Origin: Mobula hypostoma | Taxonomy: Eukaryota | Reading direction: 5' to 3' | Length of the DNA stretch: 64,000 nucleotides | NCBI RefSeq assembly: GCF_963921235.1 | Contig: NC_086097.1 | Coordinates: 128,652,001 to 128,716,000, forward strand | Part shown: one piece after another, positions 6,060-61,232 of the stretch | Layout: the number at the start of each line of letters is the position of its first letter | Position numbering within the stretch: position 1 is the stretch's first letter | The notes under the pieces: generated by a model | The model's database searches: none | What the model was told of the DNA's origin: nothing | What the model saw: the letters and a program-made list of their open reading frames with translations, nothing else | Made by a program: the position numbers and the translations under genes

Positions 6060-6260
6060 AAATAAGGCATATGGCTAAAGATTTGCCCAAAGAAGTAGCA
6101 AGAGTAAACTTCATGGGAGTAGAGTGAGATAATGAGGCAGAGAAGATTAAGGAGGAAACTCCAGACCTTGGGCCCCTAATAACTGAAGGAATAACTATCA
6201 GAGCATGAGGAATTTATTTCACATGACCAAGAAATGGAATTAAAAGGGCATATATTTTTA
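6060..6260 (-). mobile_element. Old L2-like LINE 3' fragment
   Basis: Approximate reverse complement of the 18470-18790 repeat. Confidence 0.4.
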
Positions 6261-6379
6261 AGATTCTGAGACAGGAAGTGGATTGTAAGAGATGTCATGG
6301 GAAATTATATGATAATTGAGTCACTTTCCTGAGACAATTTTCCCCGAATATATAACATATGGTCTAATTAACATCTAAG

Positions 6380-7082
6380 TACACTCAGTGTCCACTTTAT
6401 AAGGTAGCTACACACATCAAATGCTGGTGAACGCAACTCTTAGGCTGAGCCTTTGGCGTGCCGAGCAACGGCCAGTTATGGAACCCCGAGAGTGGCTCCT
6501 GCAAAGAACCGCAGTCAGCGTGTTACTCCAGGTCAGGGTCTTCAAAATAACCCTGAAAGGGTAAAATAGAGATATTCATCATTATTATTAAGTACCATGT
6601 TGTTTGACATACAGTAGGTGATCATGGTCTAGGACCTTGATCATTCTTGGCAAATGTAATTCTTGGTAAATATAAGGTAGCTCCTGGCCACGGACTGTAT
6701 GTTCAAGGACTACTGCCTTCCTGTCAGCTTGAACCACTCTGGCCATTCTCCTCTCACTTCTCTCATTAACAAGGTGTTTTCACCCACAGAACTGCCACAC
6801 ACTGGATTTTTGTTTTGTTTTGTTTTTTGCACCATTCTTTGTAAACTCTGGAGATTGTTGTGCATGAAAATCCTAGTAGATCTGCAGTTTTTGAGGTATT
6901 CATACCACTCTGTTTTGCACCACAGCAAAGCCACTTGGATCGCATTTATTCCCCATTCTGATGTTTGGTCCAAACAACTAAACCCCTTGACCAGGTCTGC
7001 ATGTTTTCATGCATTGAGTTTCTGACACATGATTAGATATTTGCATTAAGTAGCAGATGTACAGGTGTACCTAATAAAGTAC
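6380..7082. mobile_element. Non-autonomous Tc1/mariner element (interrupted at 6410-6670)
   Basis: Left end TA|CACTCAGTGTCCACTTTATAAGGTA; right end GGTGTACCTAATAAAGT (inverted repeat); Tc1-type internal sequence. Confidence 0.72.
6410..6670 (-). other. Chimeric insertion: 26-nt PLE tail plus inverted copy of 7663-7884, with 12-bp TSD
   Basis: TSD tataaggtagct 6398-6409 / 6671-6682; 6436-6657 is the reverse complement of 7663-7884 (10 mismatches in 222 by hand count). Confidence 0.88.
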
Positions 7083-7284
7083 ACCCAAGCACCATGGGTG
7101 ACCATTCGAATGGACTTGTAATCTAAGAATAATTGTGAATTTGAGAATTAACTATGGTTTATAATCACAAATGTGCTCGTTTGGAAAAGTTTTCTCCTAT
7201 GGTAAAAGTTTCTTAATTGTCTACCAGTATTTAGTGAAGCTTAATTTACACCATTATATTGTTCTTTGTCCTTTCACATAATTA

Positions 7285-7744
7285 AGGTGGTTGGGGGACA
7301 ACTTCAACCCCTGCCGTATAAACTATCCTCATTTTTAATGAAACTAACATAGAACCAGGGTGGAGATACATCTCTCCCAAAAGAAGTGTAAGGTGCTCCT
7401 TCCCTCCGCTAGCCTGTATGTAACCCTTGGGCAAGGTGTAGCACCTGCTTAGCTCCCCCACCACACCCACAGATCAGGGTCATTTGAAGCCATGGGGGCA
7501 GGTGGTGGATGGTCGTATAAGCCCCTAGTTCATATCACGTCTTGGTTGCTTGACTACTGATTTCAGGCAGAATATCTCTGAAGAGCATTGAAAATGGATG
7601 GGGTCACCCATCTTGTAAAGACACTGCCCAGAAGAAGGCAATGGCAAGCCACTTCTGTGGAAACATTTGCTAAGAATGATCAAGGTCATAGACCATGATC
7701 ACCTACTGTATGTCAAACAACATGGCACTTAATAATAATGATGA
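7285..7744 (+). mobile_element. RTE-related non-autonomous retroelement/SINE
   Basis: GAAGGCAATGGCAAGCCACTTCTG resembles the RTE/BovB UTR motif; (AAT/GAT)n tail at 7730-7744. Confidence 0.55.
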
Positions 7745-8490
7745 ATATCTCTATTTTACCCTTTCAGGGTTCTTTTGAAGACCCCGGCCTGGAGTAATAC
7801 GCTGACTGCGGTTCTTTGCAGGAGCCGCTCTCCGGGTTCCATAACTGGCCGTTGCTCGGCATGCCAAAGGCTCAGCCTAAGAGTCCGGCTCGAATGCGGA
7901 AGTCTAGGATCTCGGGGCTCTGGAGACGGGTGGCTCGAGGCTTGGTGTCACTTCAGGAGACCCGTGTGTCATCGGGAGAGTCGGAATATCTGCTGTGTGC
8001 CTGGAGACCCTGGATCTTTGCGATCTTCAGGCACAGAGCTTGTAAAGAGCGAAGTAATAGACTTTTAACATCGTAAACCAATGAGTTGTTTCTTATGTCT
8101 CCCCGCTCGCTGGGAAAATGGAGACACCTCCTTCACCCTTATTAGGGAGAGAGAGAACCTGCGTATGTTGAACACCGGGTGAAACGCGAAGTCTTTAGGG
8201 TAATTGCAATTCTGTGTCTTTGCTGTTGCTTTGCTCACACTTGAGTGCTCGGTGACGGTGCTGATGCTTTTTTTTGCCGGTGGGGGGAGGGGGGATTGTT
8301 GCTCGCTGCCGCTTACGCGCAGGGGGAGGGAGAGCTGCGGGGGGGGGGCTTTGGGCTTCTACCATTTAACTGTTGTTCATTCTTTGGAACACACCTCTGT
8401 TTTCGTGGATGGTTGCAAAGAAAAAGCATTTCATGATGTATATTGTTTACATTTCTCTGCCATTAAATTGTACATTTGAACCTTTGAAGA
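7745..8490 (+). mobile_element. GC/CpG-rich non-coding retroelement with Rex1-like 3' end (family unassigned)
   Basis: CpG-rich body; ends ...tgtttacatttctctgccattaaa...ttgaacctttgaa like Rex1-type tails; no credible ORF. Confidence 0.45.
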
Positions 8491-8504
8491 GAAAACATAA
8501 AACG

Positions 8505-8672
8505 AAGAAAATAGAATGCCACAGCACAGTACAGGCTTTTCAATCTTTTAAGCTACTCTAAGATCTTTCTAACACTTCTGTCCTACATAGCCCTACATTT
8601 TTCTATCATCCATGTGTCTATCTAAGAGTTTCTTTAATGCCCCTAATGTATTTGCCTCTACTACCACCCTGA
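8505..8672 (-). mobile_element. CR1 3' end fragment
   Basis: acagcacagtacaggc...gcctctactaccaccctg, homologous to 9840-10010. Confidence 0.7.
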
Positions 8673-19462: not shown

Positions 19463-20262
19463 TTTTTTTTTATTTTAACAAAATATACTTTATTCAGAAA
19501 TAAAATTATGTCCAATAAACCATTCAATGACTGTCAATCCTTTACAGACGTTTCCACTACATTCTATACACAAAATAATCTGCAGATGCTGGGGTCAAAG
19601 CACCACTCACAACACGCTGGAGGAACTCAGCAGGTTGGGCAGCATCCGTGGAAACGATGAGTCGACGTTTCGGGCCGGAACACTTCGTCTTCCGGCTCGA
19701 AACGTCGAATCATCGTTTCCACGGATGCTGCCCGACCTGCTGAGTTCCTCCAGAGTGTTGTAAGTGTTCCACTACATTCTATACATTTCTACACTTTCAG
19801 CCACTCACGTGGCACTATGTTATTTCATCTTTACCCATCATTGTTGAGGGGTATACTCCCCGCCACCCGACCCCTCCCACTCCCCCGGGAAAAGGACCCT
19901 AAACAGTGGTCCTTCTCCACCGGGCCTTTGCTGTACCTGCACCAAGCTTCAGTGCGTCCCCCAGCACGTACTCCTGCAGCCGAGAATGTGCCAGTCGGCA
20001 GCATTCTCCCACGGACATCTCCATGTGCTGGTAGACCATCAAGTTTCGGGCCGACCAAAGAGTGTCTTTCACCGAGTTGACGATCTGCCAGCAGCACCGG
20101 ATGTTGGTCCCTGTGTGCGTCCCTGGGAACAGCCCGTAGATCAGAGAGTCCTCTGTTATGCAGCTGCTGGGGATGAAGCGTGACACTAGCCCGTCCATCC
20201 TCCTCCACACCTTCTCCACGAAACCACAGTGTGCAAAGAGGTGGGTCACAGACTCCTCCTCA
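19463..20262 (-). mobile_element. Tx1/L1-clade LINE, 5'-truncated 3' end
   Basis: EESVTHLFAHCGFVEKVW...LWSARNLMVY (ORF2 C-terminal zinc-finger region); AATAAA and poly(A) on the minus strand at ~19463-19495. Confidence 0.85.
19571..19766. mobile_element. Near-perfect palindromic PLE tail insertion
   Basis: Arms 19604-19680 / 19690-19766 (72/77 identical), 9-nt spacer; exact 19-bp TSD ttccactacattctataca 19552-19570 / 19767-19785. Confidence 0.9.
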
Positions 20263-37353: not shown

Positions 37354-37989
37354 ATACCACGTGCCATGGCACCACCATTCTCAACTGTTGCTCACTGAAG
37401 GTATCAGCTGTGCGCCATGAGGTCATGAAGTCTGTCTATGCGTATCATTGATGTAATGGCATGATGTTCCTATATGGTTGAATGACTGACAATGGGTGTA
37501 GTGTTAGAGGTCTGTTTGCAAGATTTAAGGCGTGGAAAGTGTGTTGATAGTGGGTGATGAAATGTTAGCAGGGAACGGGAATGCATCTGGTGGGATATGT
37601 GATATTAAGTTATATGTGTTGAACACAGCATTTTGCTCACTGACGTTGCATCCACAGGCTTGAAGCTTGATTTCTCACATTGAGTGTCACAGTCCTCTGC
37701 CTTTACCTAGTGGTTCTCCGGACTCTTCACACATAAAAGACCTCTCTCTTACCTTCCTTTTTGTCTGTCAATGCTCACCGAGTCAATTGGAAGACTCTGG
37801 GCCCCTTCTCTCAGCTGTGAACTTCCAATAAGCATGAAAGACCATTGGAAAAACTTCCACCTATTCTCAGCCACGGTACCTCACTTCCTTAGCAGGTACA
37901 GCTTGATGCAGAAAAGATTGCCATGGATCCTGTGTAGTGATCACACTCAGATTCATGAAGCTGTCTCTATCCATTGCACCAAGTTGCCT

Positions 37990-39025
37990 GCCACCTCCAA
38001 CGAACATATAATTCTCTGTAACTTCTGCCACCTCCAACGGGATCCCACCACTAAGCACATCTTTCCCTCCCCCCCCTCACTGCTTTCCGCAGGGATCGCT
38101 CCCTACACGACTCCCTTGTCCATTCATCCCCCCCCATCTCTTCCCACCGATCTTCCTCCTGGCATTTATCCTTGTAAGTGGAACAAGTGCTACACATGCC
38201 CTTACACTTCCTCCCTTACCACCATTCAGGGCCCCAGACAGTCCTTCCAGGTGAGGCGACACTTCACCTGTGAGTTGGCTGGGGTGATATACTGCATCCG
38301 GTGTTCCCGATGTGGCCTTCTATATATTGGCGAGACCCGACGCAGACTGGGAGACCATTTCGCTGAACACCTACATTCTGTCCACTGGAGAAAGCAGGAT
38401 CTCCCAGTGGCCACACATTTTAATTCCACGTCCCATTCCCATTCTGATATGTCTATCCATGGCCTCCTCTACTGTCAAGATGAAGTCACACTCAGGTTGG
38501 AGGAACAATACCTTATATTCCGTCTGGGTAGCCTCCAACCTGATGGCATGAACATTGACTTCTCTAACTTCCATTAATGCCCCACCTCCCCTTTGTACCC
38601 CATCCGCTATTTATTATTATTACTTTTTTCCCTGTTTTTTCTCTCTCTCTTTTTTCTCCCTCTGTCCCTCTCACTATACCCCTTGCCCATCCTCTGGGCT
38701 CCCCTCCCCCTTTCTTTCTCCCTAGGCTTCCTTTCCCATGATCCTCTCCTTTCTCCAGCCTCATATCCCCTTTGCCAATCAACTTTCCAGCTCTTAGCTC
38801 CATCCCTCCCCCTCCTGTCTTTTCCTGTCATTTCGGATCTCCCCCTCCCCCTCCCACTTTCAAATTTCTTACTATCTCTTCTTTCGGTTAGTCCTGACGA
38901 AGCGTCTCGGCCCGAAACATCAACTGTACCTCTCCCTATCGATGCTGCCTGGCCTGCTGCATTCACCAGCATTTTTTTGTGTGTGTTGCTTGAATTTCCA
39001 GCATCTGCAGATTTCCTTGTGCTTG
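37990..39025 (+). mobile_element. 5'-truncated PLE: linker, GIY-YIG, pLTR, hammerhead (38890-38925), complete tail
   Basis: CKWNKCYTC...GVIYCIRCSRCGLLYIGETRRRL; agtcctgacgaagcgtctcggcccgaaacatc. Confidence 0.93.
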
Positions 39026-59439: not shown

Positions 59440-60489
59440 CCTCACTCCACAGGTTGAGCCAGAGCTAATGTAAGTTTGAGTTAAACAGAGGCAGATCGTT
59501 CTGCCATCCGAAACAGAGCCCGTCCCCTGAGCAGAGGCAGCAGAAATGACAAACCGCACACAACATTCTGAATAGGGCTCCTTGTAGGAGCACAGTGGGA
59601 GTCAAATCCTCTTTCACGTCATATTATCTGACAGATGTAGGCAGACCCCTGTCAGACAAAAAGCTTCCTGCACCTGGATACAATGAGCTGCCATTTTGCT
59701 GTCTTTTTCACAGTGTTGTGAAGCCAATTGGCCAGCTTAAATAGCATTACATGATTTTAAAAACGTTCTCTTGTATGCAAAAAAAAAAGTCAGCTGCAAC
59801 AGCATTGCTACCGTTTGCAAGGCAGAAGTTGCACAACGTCACCAGTGGCAAAGAAAACAACAATGACAATGGCATTATAATTTTCAGATCAAAGCAAAGT
59901 ATGTCTACCAGGTAAAAAGGATTACTTTCCCAATTAACATTCCAACTGTACTGGATCAAAGAGAGGGCTCTTCTGCGAAGATTCCTACAACGGCAGTCCC
60001 ATCAAACACCCACAGCCCACCGATTTTACTGAAGCTGTACTACTGACTACACCTTGCTCATTTGAAGTAGTATTACAGTGAAAACATTTTATTGTTCAGT
60101 CTTGGAATAATAAAAAATTTGTGGCAGGGAATTATGCCCATTCAACCATGCCAGCAAGAATAGTCTACCAACGTTATTGAGCTCCCATTTCCTAGTCTTG
60201 CTGGTTAGTTTCACATGGACTGAGATACAGTGAAGAGCTTTTGTTTGCATGGCATCAAGACAGATCATTCCATGATTAAGTAGATCACGGTCGTATAAAA
60301 ATAATAACTGAATGTGTGTCTTCTTTATGTTTGCTTCAATTTGCTGGTATAGCCCGGGCAAGTTCTGTGGATGGCACAGCTTGCAGCCACTGTGTCTCTG
60401 TGATGGATGGGGTACAGTCAAATGGGACGGTGTAGAAGTTCTCCAGCGCTGTAGGATCAGTACACATCCAAGCAAGTGAGGAATATTCC

Positions 60490-61232
60490 ATTCAGGGCCC
60501 CAAACAGTCCTTCCAGGTGAGGCATCACTTCACCTGTGAGTCGACTGGGGTGATATACTGCGTCCGGTGCTCCCGATGTGGCCTTTTATATATTGGTGAG
60601 ACCCGACGCAGACTGGGAGACCGCTTTGCTGAACATCTACGCTCTGTCCGCCAGAGAAAGCAGGATCTCCCAGTGGCCACACATTTTAATTCCACATCCC
60701 ATTCCCATTCTGACATGTCTATCCACGGCCTCCTCTACTGTAAAGATGAAGCCACACTCAGGTTGGAGGAACAACACCTTATATTCCGTCTGGGTAGCCT
60801 CCAACCTGATGGCATGAACATTGACTTCTCTAACTTCCGCTAGGCCCCACCTCCCCCTCGTACCCCATCTGTTACTCATTTTTATGCACACATTCTTTCT
60901 CTCACTCTCCTTTTCCTCCCTCTGTCCCTCTGAATATACCTCTTGCCCATCCTCTGGGTCACCCCCCCCCCGTCTTTCTTCCCGGACCTCCTGTCCCATG
61001 ATCCTCTCGTATCCCCTTTTGCCTATCACCTGTCCAGCTCTCGGCTCTATCCCTCCCCCTCCTGTCTTCTCCTATCATTTTGCATCTCCCCCTCCCCCTC
61101 CAGCTTTCAAATCCCTTACTCACTCTTCCTTCAGTTAGTCCTGACGAAGGGTCTCGGCCTGAAACGTCGACTGCGCCTCTTCCTACAGATGCTGCTTGGC
61201 CTGCTGCGTTCACCAGCAACTTGGATGTATGT
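60490..61232 (+). mobile_element. Young 5'-truncated PLE (GIY-YIG and pLTR)
   Basis: ORF 60517..60843 has the same protein as 316..642; exact 13-bp TSD tgaggaatattcc 60477-60489 / 61233-61245. Confidence 0.95.
61136..61173 (+). ncRNA. Minimal type I hammerhead ribozyme (intact)
   Basis: tagtc CTGACGA agggtctcggcct GAAA CGTC gactg, identical to 935-972. Confidence 0.85.

What the first reader, a model, noticed from the sequence alone, without database searches (positions are those of the whole stretch)
6398..6682. PLE-primed capture of neighbouring DNA: 26-nt Penelope tail fused to an inverted copy of sequence about 1 kb away
Seen: an exact 12-bp TSD (tataaggtagct) in the left end of a Tc1 element flanks three parts. 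6410-6435 is the reverse complement of the PLE tail (tgcgttcaccagcatttgatgtgtgt, compare 61205-61232). 6436-6657 is the reverse complement of 7663-7884 (about 95% identical, colinear). A 13-nt filler repeats adjacent sequence. The copied segment appears to span the junction of two different elements at 7744/7745, which points to this locus as donor. Inference: the PLE RT began target-primed reverse transcription on its own RNA, then jumped onto nearby plus-strand DNA or nascent RNA. This would be a PLE route to local inverted duplication and sequence shuffling.
Basis: partly seen in the sequence, partly recalled or inferred. Interest (0 to 1): 0.85.

Follow-up and report, generated by a model that had tools for sequence, protein, structure and literature searches.

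The report
Penelope insertion that copied neighbouring DNA
A tiny, ancient insertion made by a Penelope-like jumping gene holds only 26 bases of the jumping gene and, in their place, a back-to-front copy of 222 bases from 1 kb away: a rare accident that shows how such elements can shuffle nearby DNA.

Summary
An exact 12-bp duplication (6398-6409, 6671-6682) brackets three parts. First come 26 nt of a Penelope-like element (PLE). Then comes a gapless 212/222 inverted copy of 7663-7884. Last is a 13-nt stutter. The copied stretch spans the joint of two high-copy repeats, and that joint occurs only twice in the 3.48-Gb assembly, both times here. The donor is therefore this locus.

The 26 nt are not the PLE "tail". 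They begin at the upstream of the family's two reverse-transcription start sites.

Of 80 other insertions broken at the same PLE base, 53 are two-armed, 14 plain, 3 internal jumps and 10 unresolved. None captured local DNA, so the event is rare.

Assembled short-read contigs (unitigs) from two differently labelled organisms carry the left junctions, so the insert is old and real.

I read it as one aberrant PLE integration. My preferred mechanism (0.45): one cut end made 26 nt of PLE cDNA, while the other end folded back and copied its own strand 1 kb away.

Comparable events are published for LINE-1, not for PLEs. This scan noted similar cases in other shark genomes (e1-7858584, e1-7789363).

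The parts
6398..6409 (.). Left copy of the 12-bp target-site duplication, TATAAGGTAGCT
   Evidence: Exact match to 6671-6682. It lies inside the left terminal inverted repeat of a Tc1-like element.
6410..6435 (-). 26 nt of PLE 3' region (sense on the minus strand), beginning at the upstream (no-tail) reverse-transcription start site ...GATGTGTGT
   Evidence: Other PLE arms start at the same place, right against their TSDs (L041; 32 of 80 arms lack the tail). The motif lies about 360 nt downstream of GIY-YIG ORFs in three window copies.
6436..6576 (-). Inverted copy of the first 141 nt of repeat X (donor 7744-7884)
   Evidence: The joint to the PLE piece is blunt, with no shared bases and no filler.
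6577..6657 (-). Inverted copy of the last 81 nt of repeat Y (donor 7663-7743)
   Evidence: A 92-nt contig of organism B (X5, record 19) covers 6532-6623 with 2 differences.
6658..6670 (.). 13-nt filler that imperfectly repeats the adjacent end of the copy (a stutter)
6671..6682 (.). Right copy of the target-site duplication
7663..7884 (+). Donor stretch, spanning the Y|X junction at 7743/7744
   Evidence: junction unique in the genome; 4 shared private states.
7744..8488 (+). Repeat X, a full copy of about 745 bp from a family with more than 2000 candidate copies, unclassified
7356..7743 (+). 3' part of repeat Y (more than 4000 candidate copies; ends in an AATAAT-type tail), unclassified
   Evidence: No tRNA-like head was found.
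6383..7092 (-). Internally deleted element with Tc1/mariner-like terminal inverted repeats; it hosts the insertion
   Evidence: Terminal inverted repeat alignment and paralog ends TACACTCAGTGGCCACTTTATTAGGTACA. Pfam gives only weak HTH hits below the cut-off, so the class is inferred from the repeats.

Best explanation
This is one aberrant integration by a Penelope-like element, resolved as a two-armed insert whose second arm is local DNA instead of PLE. Step 1 (shown by the sequence): the PLE endonuclease made a staggered cut in a Tc1-like terminal repeat, which left the 12-bp duplication. Step 2 (shown): the upper-strand 3' end primed reverse transcription of PLE RNA at the family's upstream start site, and only 26 nt were made. 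Step 3 (inferred): the other 3' end, on the lower strand to the right of the cut, did not copy PLE RNA. After its partner strand was unwound or resected, it folded back on its own strand about 1 kb away. It made a short abortive copy (the 13-nt stutter), started again 2-3 nt away, and copied 7663 to 7884. Step 4 (inferred): the two new 3' tails were joined without homology, either by a template jump of the reverse transcriptase onto the end of the other arm or by end joining. Fill-in synthesis then restored the duplex. The polymerase of step 3 is unknown; it could be the PLE RT or a host enzyme. I put about 0.8 on the wider claim, which is a single PLE-initiated event that filled its gap from a local template. 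The figure below is for this two-armed fold-back version.
For: The TSD brackets all parts. The PLE piece starts at a canonical start site against the TSD, as in L041, which carries the near-identical TSD TATAATGTAGCT, and as in the 32 of 80 surveyed arms that lack the tail. Two-armed resolution is the norm here: 53 of 80 breaks at this same PLE base are followed by a PLE arm in direct sense. This matches the in-vitro finding that a PLE protein cleaves and extends both strands from internal start sites without homology to the primer (PMC11167929, main text read). The geometry is what a fold-back of the right-hand 3'-ending strand requires. The donor lies to the right, the copy is inverted, and the donor end nearest the cut (7663) abuts the right TSD (coordinates). 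The stutter lies where synthesis of that arm would begin. A re-initiation stutter at the start of a PLE arm is seen in L118/L119. The 1005-nt distance is plausible for resection; this is my own knowledge and was not tested. Local inverted duplications and templated genomic insertions at LINE-1 insertion sites are in print (PMC11702581, passages read).
Against: There is only one example. None of 80 other breaks shows local capture. Local donors were only searched within ±1.5 kb for 3 of the unresolved loci, and within 0.65 kb for 6 more of the 10. Microhomology at the presumed fold-back priming site is weak (2 of 3 nt). Nothing in the sequence says whether the template was DNA or RNA, or which end made the 222 nt. 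A single cDNA that switched templates gives the same final sequence. The right junction (6657-6682) is covered by reads at single-copy depth, but no bridging contig was listed.
Confidence: 0.45

Rival explanations
1. One cDNA primed from the upper strand copied 26 nt of PLE RNA and then jumped, without homology, onto a plus-sense local template. That template would be nascent RNA of a transcript running left to right, or DNA displaced in an R-loop. The cDNA entered at 7884, ran to 7663, re-copied 12 nt, and was joined to the right side of the cut.
For: Template switching by retroelement reverse transcriptases is well known (my knowledge; search listings). Jumps within PLE RNA in the same orientation occur in 3 of 80 surveyed breaks (L091, L121, L127). 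Single-armed inserts that join directly to the far TSD make up 14 of 80. The PLE-to-copy joint is blunt, as expected for an end-to-end jump. [quoted passage not shown]
Against: It needs plus-strand transcription across 7663-7884, which I could not test. It does not predict which side the donor lies on, its orientation, or the 1-kb distance. A stutter at the end of synthesis is harder to explain than one at the start. A Pol III read-through from Y would stop at the TTTT at 7755-7758 (inference).
Confidence: 0.35
2. Two separate events. A plain 26-nt PLE mini-insert with its TSD came first. A later break at its right edge was then repaired with an inverted copy of nearby DNA.
For: Plain mini-inserts of 30-77 nt are common (14 of 80). 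The duplicated target could be cut again.
Against: The second break would have to fall exactly between the PLE piece and the right TSD, and leave no new duplication or deletion. Both TSD copies are intact at 12/12. Organisms A and B both carry the PLE-to-copy joint, so no intermediate form is seen.
Confidence: 0.07
3. The template was one chimeric RNA, a read-through transcript running through Y and X into a downstream PLE copy. The reverse transcriptase skipped from the PLE 3' region back to 7884 on the same molecule, giving an internally deleted retrocopy with 5' flank.
For: It would give both parts from one RNA and would fit cis preference.
Against: No plus-strand PLE 3' end lies downstream nearby. 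The next motif matches on the plus strand are at 19953 (2 mismatches, not PLE-like in context), 31629 (2 mismatches), 38958 and 61205. It also does not explain landing 1 kb upstream of the donor.
Confidence: 0.04
4. Assembly artefact or chance resemblance.
For: PLE-rich regions are hard to assemble (PMC8557442, passage read).
Against: Contigs of two samples (X1/X2: 6200-6530 with 0 differences; X5/X6, another organism label: 6200-6492 with 3 differences) bridge the TSD/PLE and PLE/copy joints. X5 also covers 6532-6623. A gapless 212/222 match and an exact 12-mer at the expected places are far beyond chance (arithmetic: 4^-12 for the 12-mer).
Confidence: 0.02

Closest known systems
Complex insertions of endonuclease-bearing Penelope-like elements: 5'-truncated copies, an adjacent inverted copy, an optional 30-40-bp tail, and internal start of reverse transcription on both cleaved strands (Craig et al. 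2021, PMC8557442, passages read; Frangieh et al. 2024, PMC11167929, main text read)
   Same: There is a TSD. The arm starts at one of two internal start sites right against the TSD. Truncation is extreme. The overall layout is 'inverted arm, then something, then TSD'.
   Different: The second part is not PLE but a copy of unique local DNA. I found no paper describing that for PLEs.
Local rearrangements and templated genomic insertions at LINE-1 insertion sites (Mendez-Dorantes et al. preprint, PMC11702581, passages read)
   Same: DNA ends made by a retrotransposon are processed into inverted duplications or templated insertions next to a short reverse-transcribed piece, with the TSD kept.
   Different: That work concerns another class of element (an APE endonuclease and poly(A) priming), in experimental human cells. 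Here the case is a germline fossil made by a GIY-YIG PLE.
Chimeric retrocopies made by LINE RT template switching (U6/L1-type; the tripartite Magnaporthe pseudogene, PMC2104539, seen in a search listing only; otherwise recalled)
   Same: The 3' end of the element is fused head-on to a copy of another template inside one TSD.
   Different: Those partners are abundant processed RNAs from elsewhere in the genome. Here the partner is unprocessed sequence across two repeats, 1 kb from the target.
Fold-back (inverted) templated insertions and fold-back inversions at double-strand breaks (PMC11724301 and PMC3907307, abstracts in a search listing only)
   Same: An inverted copy of nearby sequence from the same molecule, on the side of the 3'-ending strand, with a spacer of about 1 kb.
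   Different: The yeast insertions are mostly 5-34 bp and rely on microhomology. Here the copy is 222 bp, has little microhomology, and is joined to a reverse-transcribed piece.
LINE-1 twin priming (Ostertag and Kazazian 2001; recalled, not read here)
   Same: Both cut strands are used as primers, which gives an inverted arm.
   Different: In twin priming both arms copy the same element RNA.

Membership tests
Insertion made by an endonuclease-bearing Penelope-like element | Element sequence abuts a target-site duplication and begins at an internal reverse-transcription start site (tail optional) | tested here: met
   6410 lies directly against the TSD. The arm begins ACACACATC..., as in the no-tail arms of L041, L057 and L072. 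In the survey 48 of 80 arms carry the tail and 32 of 80 do not.
Insertion made by an endonuclease-bearing Penelope-like element | The source family encodes a GIY-YIG endonuclease fused to the RT ORF | tested here: met
   PF01541 hits in the ORFs at 1-642 (23.2 bits, cut-off 22.6) and 60436-60843 (24.5 bits), and a weaker one at 37711-38577 (18 bits, below cut-off). Each lies about 360 nt upstream of the TGCGTTCACCAGCA motif. The RT domain itself gave no Pfam hit.
Insertion made by an endonuclease-bearing Penelope-like element | Hammerhead ribozyme motif in the pseudo-LTR | tested here: inconclusive
   CTGACGA...GAAAC is seen by eye just upstream of the motif in window copies. Rfam at gathering threshold gave 0 hits in the window. 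The motif is not part of the 26-nt piece.
Two-armed (inverted plus direct) PLE insertion | Both arms are PLE sequence, each ending at a start site next to a TSD | tested here: not met
   The right-hand 235 nt are a copy of 7663-7884 plus filler, not PLE.
Chimeric retrocopy by RT template switch to a cellular RNA | The partner shows marks of an RNA origin (processed, spliced, or the discrete ends of a known RNA) | tested here: not met
   The partner begins and ends inside two repeats and crosses their genomic junction. No RNA mark is present, but an unprocessed nascent RNA cannot be excluded.
Fold-back templated insertion at a double-strand break | An inverted copy of nearby DNA from the same molecule, with the donor on the side of the 3'-ending strand and its near end next to the break | tested here: met
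   The donor lies 1005 nt to the right. The 7663 end abuts the right TSD and the copy is inverted.
Fold-back templated insertion at a double-strand break | Microhomology at the priming site | tested here: inconclusive
   The primer end ...ATA faces the donor's ACA (2 of 3), and the restart shows no clear match.
Tc1/mariner element (the host of the insertion) | Terminal inverted repeats and a DDE transposase | tested here: inconclusive
   Terminal repeats align at 16 of 19 columns with a 2-nt gap, and paralog ends are flanked by TA. Pfam gives only HTH_23 at 17 bits, below its cut-off. ORFs of paralog L082 gave no hit.

The most novel reading that the evidence does not exclude
PLE integration complexes, which cut and extend both strands, now and then load the second 3' end onto the target's own DNA about 1 kb away instead of onto PLE RNA. 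This would make small local inverted duplications as a regular, if rare, by-product. In genomes with hundreds of thousands of PLE copies that would be a measurable source of kb-scale sequence shuffling. Such fossils would also record how the two arms of a PLE insertion are joined. Three cases at 0.7-1.1 kb in this scan (this one, plus e1-7858584 and e1-7789363, neither of which I checked) hint at a preferred distance.
Probability: 0.2. Interest if true: 0.65.

Novelty: new variant of a known kind. Interest (0 to 1): 0.45.

Why it matters
The way Penelope-like elements integrate is still poorly understood. The first in-vitro system dates from 2024, and it showed cutting and extension of both strands from internal start sites. 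This insert is a natural record of such an event gone wrong. It has a clean TSD, a canonical start, a blunt joint, and a gap filled from DNA 1 kb away. It gives a concrete signature to mine for: a short PLE arm, a non-PLE fill and a TSD. It also gives a simple rule, based on donor side and orientation, that would tell a DNA fold-back from an RNA template. For genome evolution it shows that PLEs, like LINE-1, can duplicate and invert nearby sequence. The survey indicates that this is uncommon (0 of 80).

Tried and rejected
1. Hammerhead cleavage as the cause of the break: by eye the predicted cut (GAAACGTC|GAC) lies 37 nt upstream of the 26-nt piece, so a run-off on ribozyme-cut RNA would give 63 nt, not 26. 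Rejected.

2. Is PLE base 26 a hot spot for breaks? Patterns for breaks 6 nt earlier and 7 nt later gave 170 and 176 hits against 88. However, the comparators are polluted by 1-nt indel variants. There is no evidence for a hot spot.

I then fetched 651-nt stretches for the 58 loci that had none, as the message allowed. As a result, donors beyond 0.5-1.5 kb could not be sought.

4. TSD search in the 10 unresolved survey loci found no repeat of at least 8 nt (one 8-mer, in L052, fell inside another PLE copy). Self-BLAST found no local donor in L052, L060 and L063, nor in L096, L097, L108, L113 and L122. L139 gave only a 17-nt hit.

5. L095 looked like a PLE/non-PLE chimera, but its partner is a repeat with more than 1400 candidate copies whose own end sits at the joint. 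It is probably a nested later insertion.

6. Expression: no RNA holder was listed, so the direction of transcription is unknown.

7. Empty site: none was seen. Both organism labels hold the filled site. The exact 27-mer of the right flank has no paralog within 3 mismatches.

8. Rfam at gathering threshold gave 0 hits in the window. ARAGORN on 7000-8600 found 0 genes.

9. Pfam on the Tc1-like remnant and on a paralog gave nothing above the cut-off.

10. An unbiased sample of PLE ends in 192 kb of fetched DNA yielded 22 ends. That is too few to find a second capture.

11. Loci for the Y family could not be cut out because the machine was busy, and I did not repeat the request. The three differences in the Y part are therefore not polarised.

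Full report
**What is there.** The window lies in a 3.48-Gb, 200-contig animal assembly. Earlier notes of this scan call it a cartilaginous fish; I did not check that.

At 6398-6409 and 6671-6682 the 12-mer TATAAGGTAGCT is repeated exactly. Three parts lie between the two copies:
- **PLE piece:** 26 nt whose reverse complement is TGCGTTCACCAGCATTTGATGTGTGT.
- **Inverted copy:** 222 nt that are the reverse complement of 7663-7884, at 212/222 with no gaps. The repeat finder lists this as pair I1 with 1005 nt between the arms. It is the only high-identity local inverted pair in the window that is not PLE against PLE.
- **Filler:** 13 nt, AATTCTTGGTAAA, that imperfectly repeat the neighbouring ATTCTTGGCAAA. 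Read on the lower strand the filler is a 15-nt tandem (13/15) that overlaps the TSD by 3 nt.

**The target.** The target is the left terminal inverted repeat of an internally deleted Tc1-like element (about 6383-7092). The reverse complement of that element's right end aligns to the sequence on both sides of the TSD as one continuous stretch. Paralog ends read TACACTCAGTGGCCACTTTATTAGGTACA. The pre-insertion site is therefore reconstructed, and the 12-mer is a true target-site duplication. The Tc1 label rests on these terminal repeats only. Pfam gave just sub-threshold HTH hits.

**The donor is this locus.**
- From 7744 to 8488 runs a complete copy of a repeat of about 745 bp, which I call X. 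It has 2018 candidate matches in the genome. All 38 non-window matches that were scored start at query base 82, which is 7744, at 84-87% identity. One search shows the full 745-bp extent in the 28 loci fetched.
- Up to about 7743 runs the 3' end of another repeat, Y, with 4258 candidates.
- Only the two window copies span the joint.
- A 30-mer across the joint, searched with up to 3 mismatches, occurs exactly twice in the whole assembly, both times here, with none for the reversed control.
- Both X and Y continue beyond 7663-7884, so that stretch is the source and 6436-6657 is the copy.
- In the X part, donor and copy share 4 states that are rare among 36-38 paralogs. Of their 7 differences, 5 are derived in the donor and 2 in the copy. 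This is ordinary divergence after the event, not error-prone copying.
- The joint between X base 141 and the PLE piece is unique in the genome.

**The 26 nt are PLE, but not the "tail".**
- TGCGTTCACCAGCA occurs 9 times in the window within 2 mismatches, where 0.42 would be expected.
- In three copies it lies about 360 nt downstream of an ORF with a GIY-YIG domain. A CTGACGA...GAAAC hammerhead-like motif lies just upstream of it, seen by eye; Rfam at gathering threshold found nothing.
- Many copies run on past ...GTGTGT for about 47 more nt (TGCTTGAATTTCCAGCATCTGCAG...).
- This matches published work. A purified PLE protein cleaves and extends both DNA strands. It starts reverse transcription at two adjacent internal sites that need no homology to the primer. 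The optional 30-40-bp "tail" is the stretch between those two sites (PMC11167929, main text read; PMC8557442, passages read).
- The insert therefore begins at the upstream, no-tail start.
- In the laid contigs about half of the paralog depth at 6421 has 2 extra nt and the rest matches the insert's form (table 4).

**Survey: what normally follows a break at this PLE base.** The pattern TGCTGGTGAACGCA followed by five bases that each differ from the PLE continuation gave 88 genome hits, and none for the control. The window's own site does not fit this filter.

I examined all 88. Thirty had ±1.5 kb of flank and 58 were 651-nt stretches.

| Class | Count |
|---|---|
| Chance matches | 4 |
| Continuous PLE with a small indel | 4 |
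| Real breaks | 80 |

The 80 real breaks divide as follows:

| Class of real break | Count |
|---|---|
| Two-armed (inverted arm followed by PLE in direct sense) | 53 |
| Plain mini-inserts of 30-77 nt with TSDs of 7-14 nt | 14 |
| Same-orientation jumps within PLE | 3 |
| Unresolved | 10 |

- One unresolved case, L095, abuts the end of another high-copy repeat.
- L065 and L066 are one duplicated locus, and L118 and L119 are one locus.
- None of the 80 is a TSD-bounded capture of local non-PLE DNA.
- 48 arms carry the tail and 32 do not.

Two-armed resolution is therefore the rule in this genome, and capture of foreign sequence is rare.

**Independent support and age.**
- Contigs of runs X1 and X2 (organism A, possibly the assembly's own sample) cover 6200-6530 with 0 differences.
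- Contigs of X5 and X6 (a differently labelled organism B) cover 6200-6492 with 3 differences and 6532-6623 with 2.
- The TSD/PLE joint, the PLE/copy joint and the inverted Y|X joint therefore exist in both organisms.
- The contig over the donor joint in B (7697-7773) has only 30 nt on one side, one short of the tool's bridging rule.
- The right junction has single-copy depth, but no bridging piece was listed.
- No empty allele was seen.
- The copy and the donor differ by 4.5%, while A and B differ by about 1-2% over the unique stretches. The event therefore predates their split.

**Mechanism.** What is shown is a single staggered cut, a PLE-primed start on one strand that stopped after 26 nt, a blunt joint, and a gap filled from a template 1 kb away. 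What is inferred is who copied the 222 nt, and from what template.

I prefer a two-armed reading (0.45). In it the lower-strand 3' end on the right of the cut folded back on its own strand and copied 7663 to 7884 after a short false start. The two arms were then joined. My reasons are:
- A second primed arm is the norm here (53 of 80).
- The donor's side, its inversion, and the placing of its near end at the right TSD are exactly what a fold-back of that strand demands. An RNA template predicts none of these.
- The stutter lies where that arm would begin, and a re-initiation stutter is seen in L118/L119.
- The distance fits a resected tract (my knowledge, not tested).

It is backed by same-orientation jumps (3 of 80) and by plain single-armed inserts (14 of 80). 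Without expression data or more cases the two models cannot be separated.

The remaining readings are unlikely:
- **Two separate events (0.07):** this needs a second break at the exact edge of the PLE piece with both TSDs left intact.
- **One chimeric read-through RNA (0.04):** the nearest plus-strand motif matches downstream are at 19953 and 31629, each with 2 mismatches and not PLE-like in context, then 38958.
- **Artefact (0.02):** this is contradicted.

**Comparison with what is known.** PLE insertions with inverted arms and tails are described, as are both-strand extension and trans-mobilisation of intron-bearing host genes (PMC8557442, PMC11167929). My searches found no paper on a PLE insert that captured local genomic sequence.

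For LINE-1, local inverted duplications, template-switching RT and templated genomic insertions at insertion sites are reported (PMC11702581, passages read). Fold-back templated insertions at breaks are known from yeast (PMC11724301, abstract seen in a search listing only).

This scan has noted two similar local borrowings in PLE inserts of other shark genomes, at 1.1 kb and 0.7 kb (e1-7858584, e1-7789363). I could not check them.

**Verdict.** The event is a real, old and rare by-product of PLE integration. It is a new variant of a known kind of accident, not a new system. Its value is as a natural record of how PLE intermediates are resolved, and as a template for a mining study. Interest is moderate.

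Noticed in passing
L041:560-830 (G000 C40:48704560-48704830): A two-armed PLE mini-insert has the TSD TATAATGTAGCT, which is 11 of 12 identical to the TSD here, and its flank is similar over about 19 nt. TSDs in L090 (ATAGGTAACA) and L103 (TGTAGGTATGAGGG) also contain AGGTA. This may be a target preference of the PLE endonuclease. It may also be search bias, because L041 was found with a query that included the TSD.
   Followed up: partly
L118/L119 (G000 C52:79011038-79011083): The first 27 nt of a PLE arm are copied twice in tandem before the insert turns into the direct arm. This looks like a re-initiation stutter at the reverse-transcription start site.
   Followed up: no
L127 (G000 C66:33339129): A TSD-flanked insert (TSD TTCTTCTGG) has a 30-nt arm from start site 1 followed, in the same orientation, by 23 nt of the tail. 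This is a jump between the two start regions of one RNA.
   Followed up: no
survey loci L046-L075 and L085-L142: Of 80 short PLE arms, 48 start with the tail of about 47 nt and 32 start without it. Both start sites are used at comparable rates in vivo, which agrees with the two in-vitro start sites reported for an Anolis PLE.
   Followed up: yes
window 19604-19766: An 80-nt inverted pair with a 3-nt spacer (93% complementary) matches the PLE 3' reference at only about 75%. It is probably a two-armed mini-insert of a diverged PLE family.
   Followed up: no
L065 and L066 (G000 C5:123943873 and C5:124074194): The same PLE insert with the same flanks occurs twice, 130 kb apart. This points to a segmental duplication.
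   Followed up: no
window 7744-8488: Repeat X (about 745 bp, more than 2000 candidate copies, discrete ends, a G-rich internal tract) is unclassified. It gave no coding or tRNA signal.
   Followed up: partly
L095:260-507 (G000 C21:103571364-103571611): A repeat of about 241 nt starting CAGTTGGGGCTG has more than 1400 candidate copies at 93-94% identity, so it is a young family. One copy sits inside a PLE arm exactly after PLE base 26.
   Followed up: partly
window 6200-7415, laid contigs: Organism B, which carries a different label, shares the insert and differs from the window by about 1-2% over unique stretches (3/293, 6/380, 8/396).
   Followed up: partly
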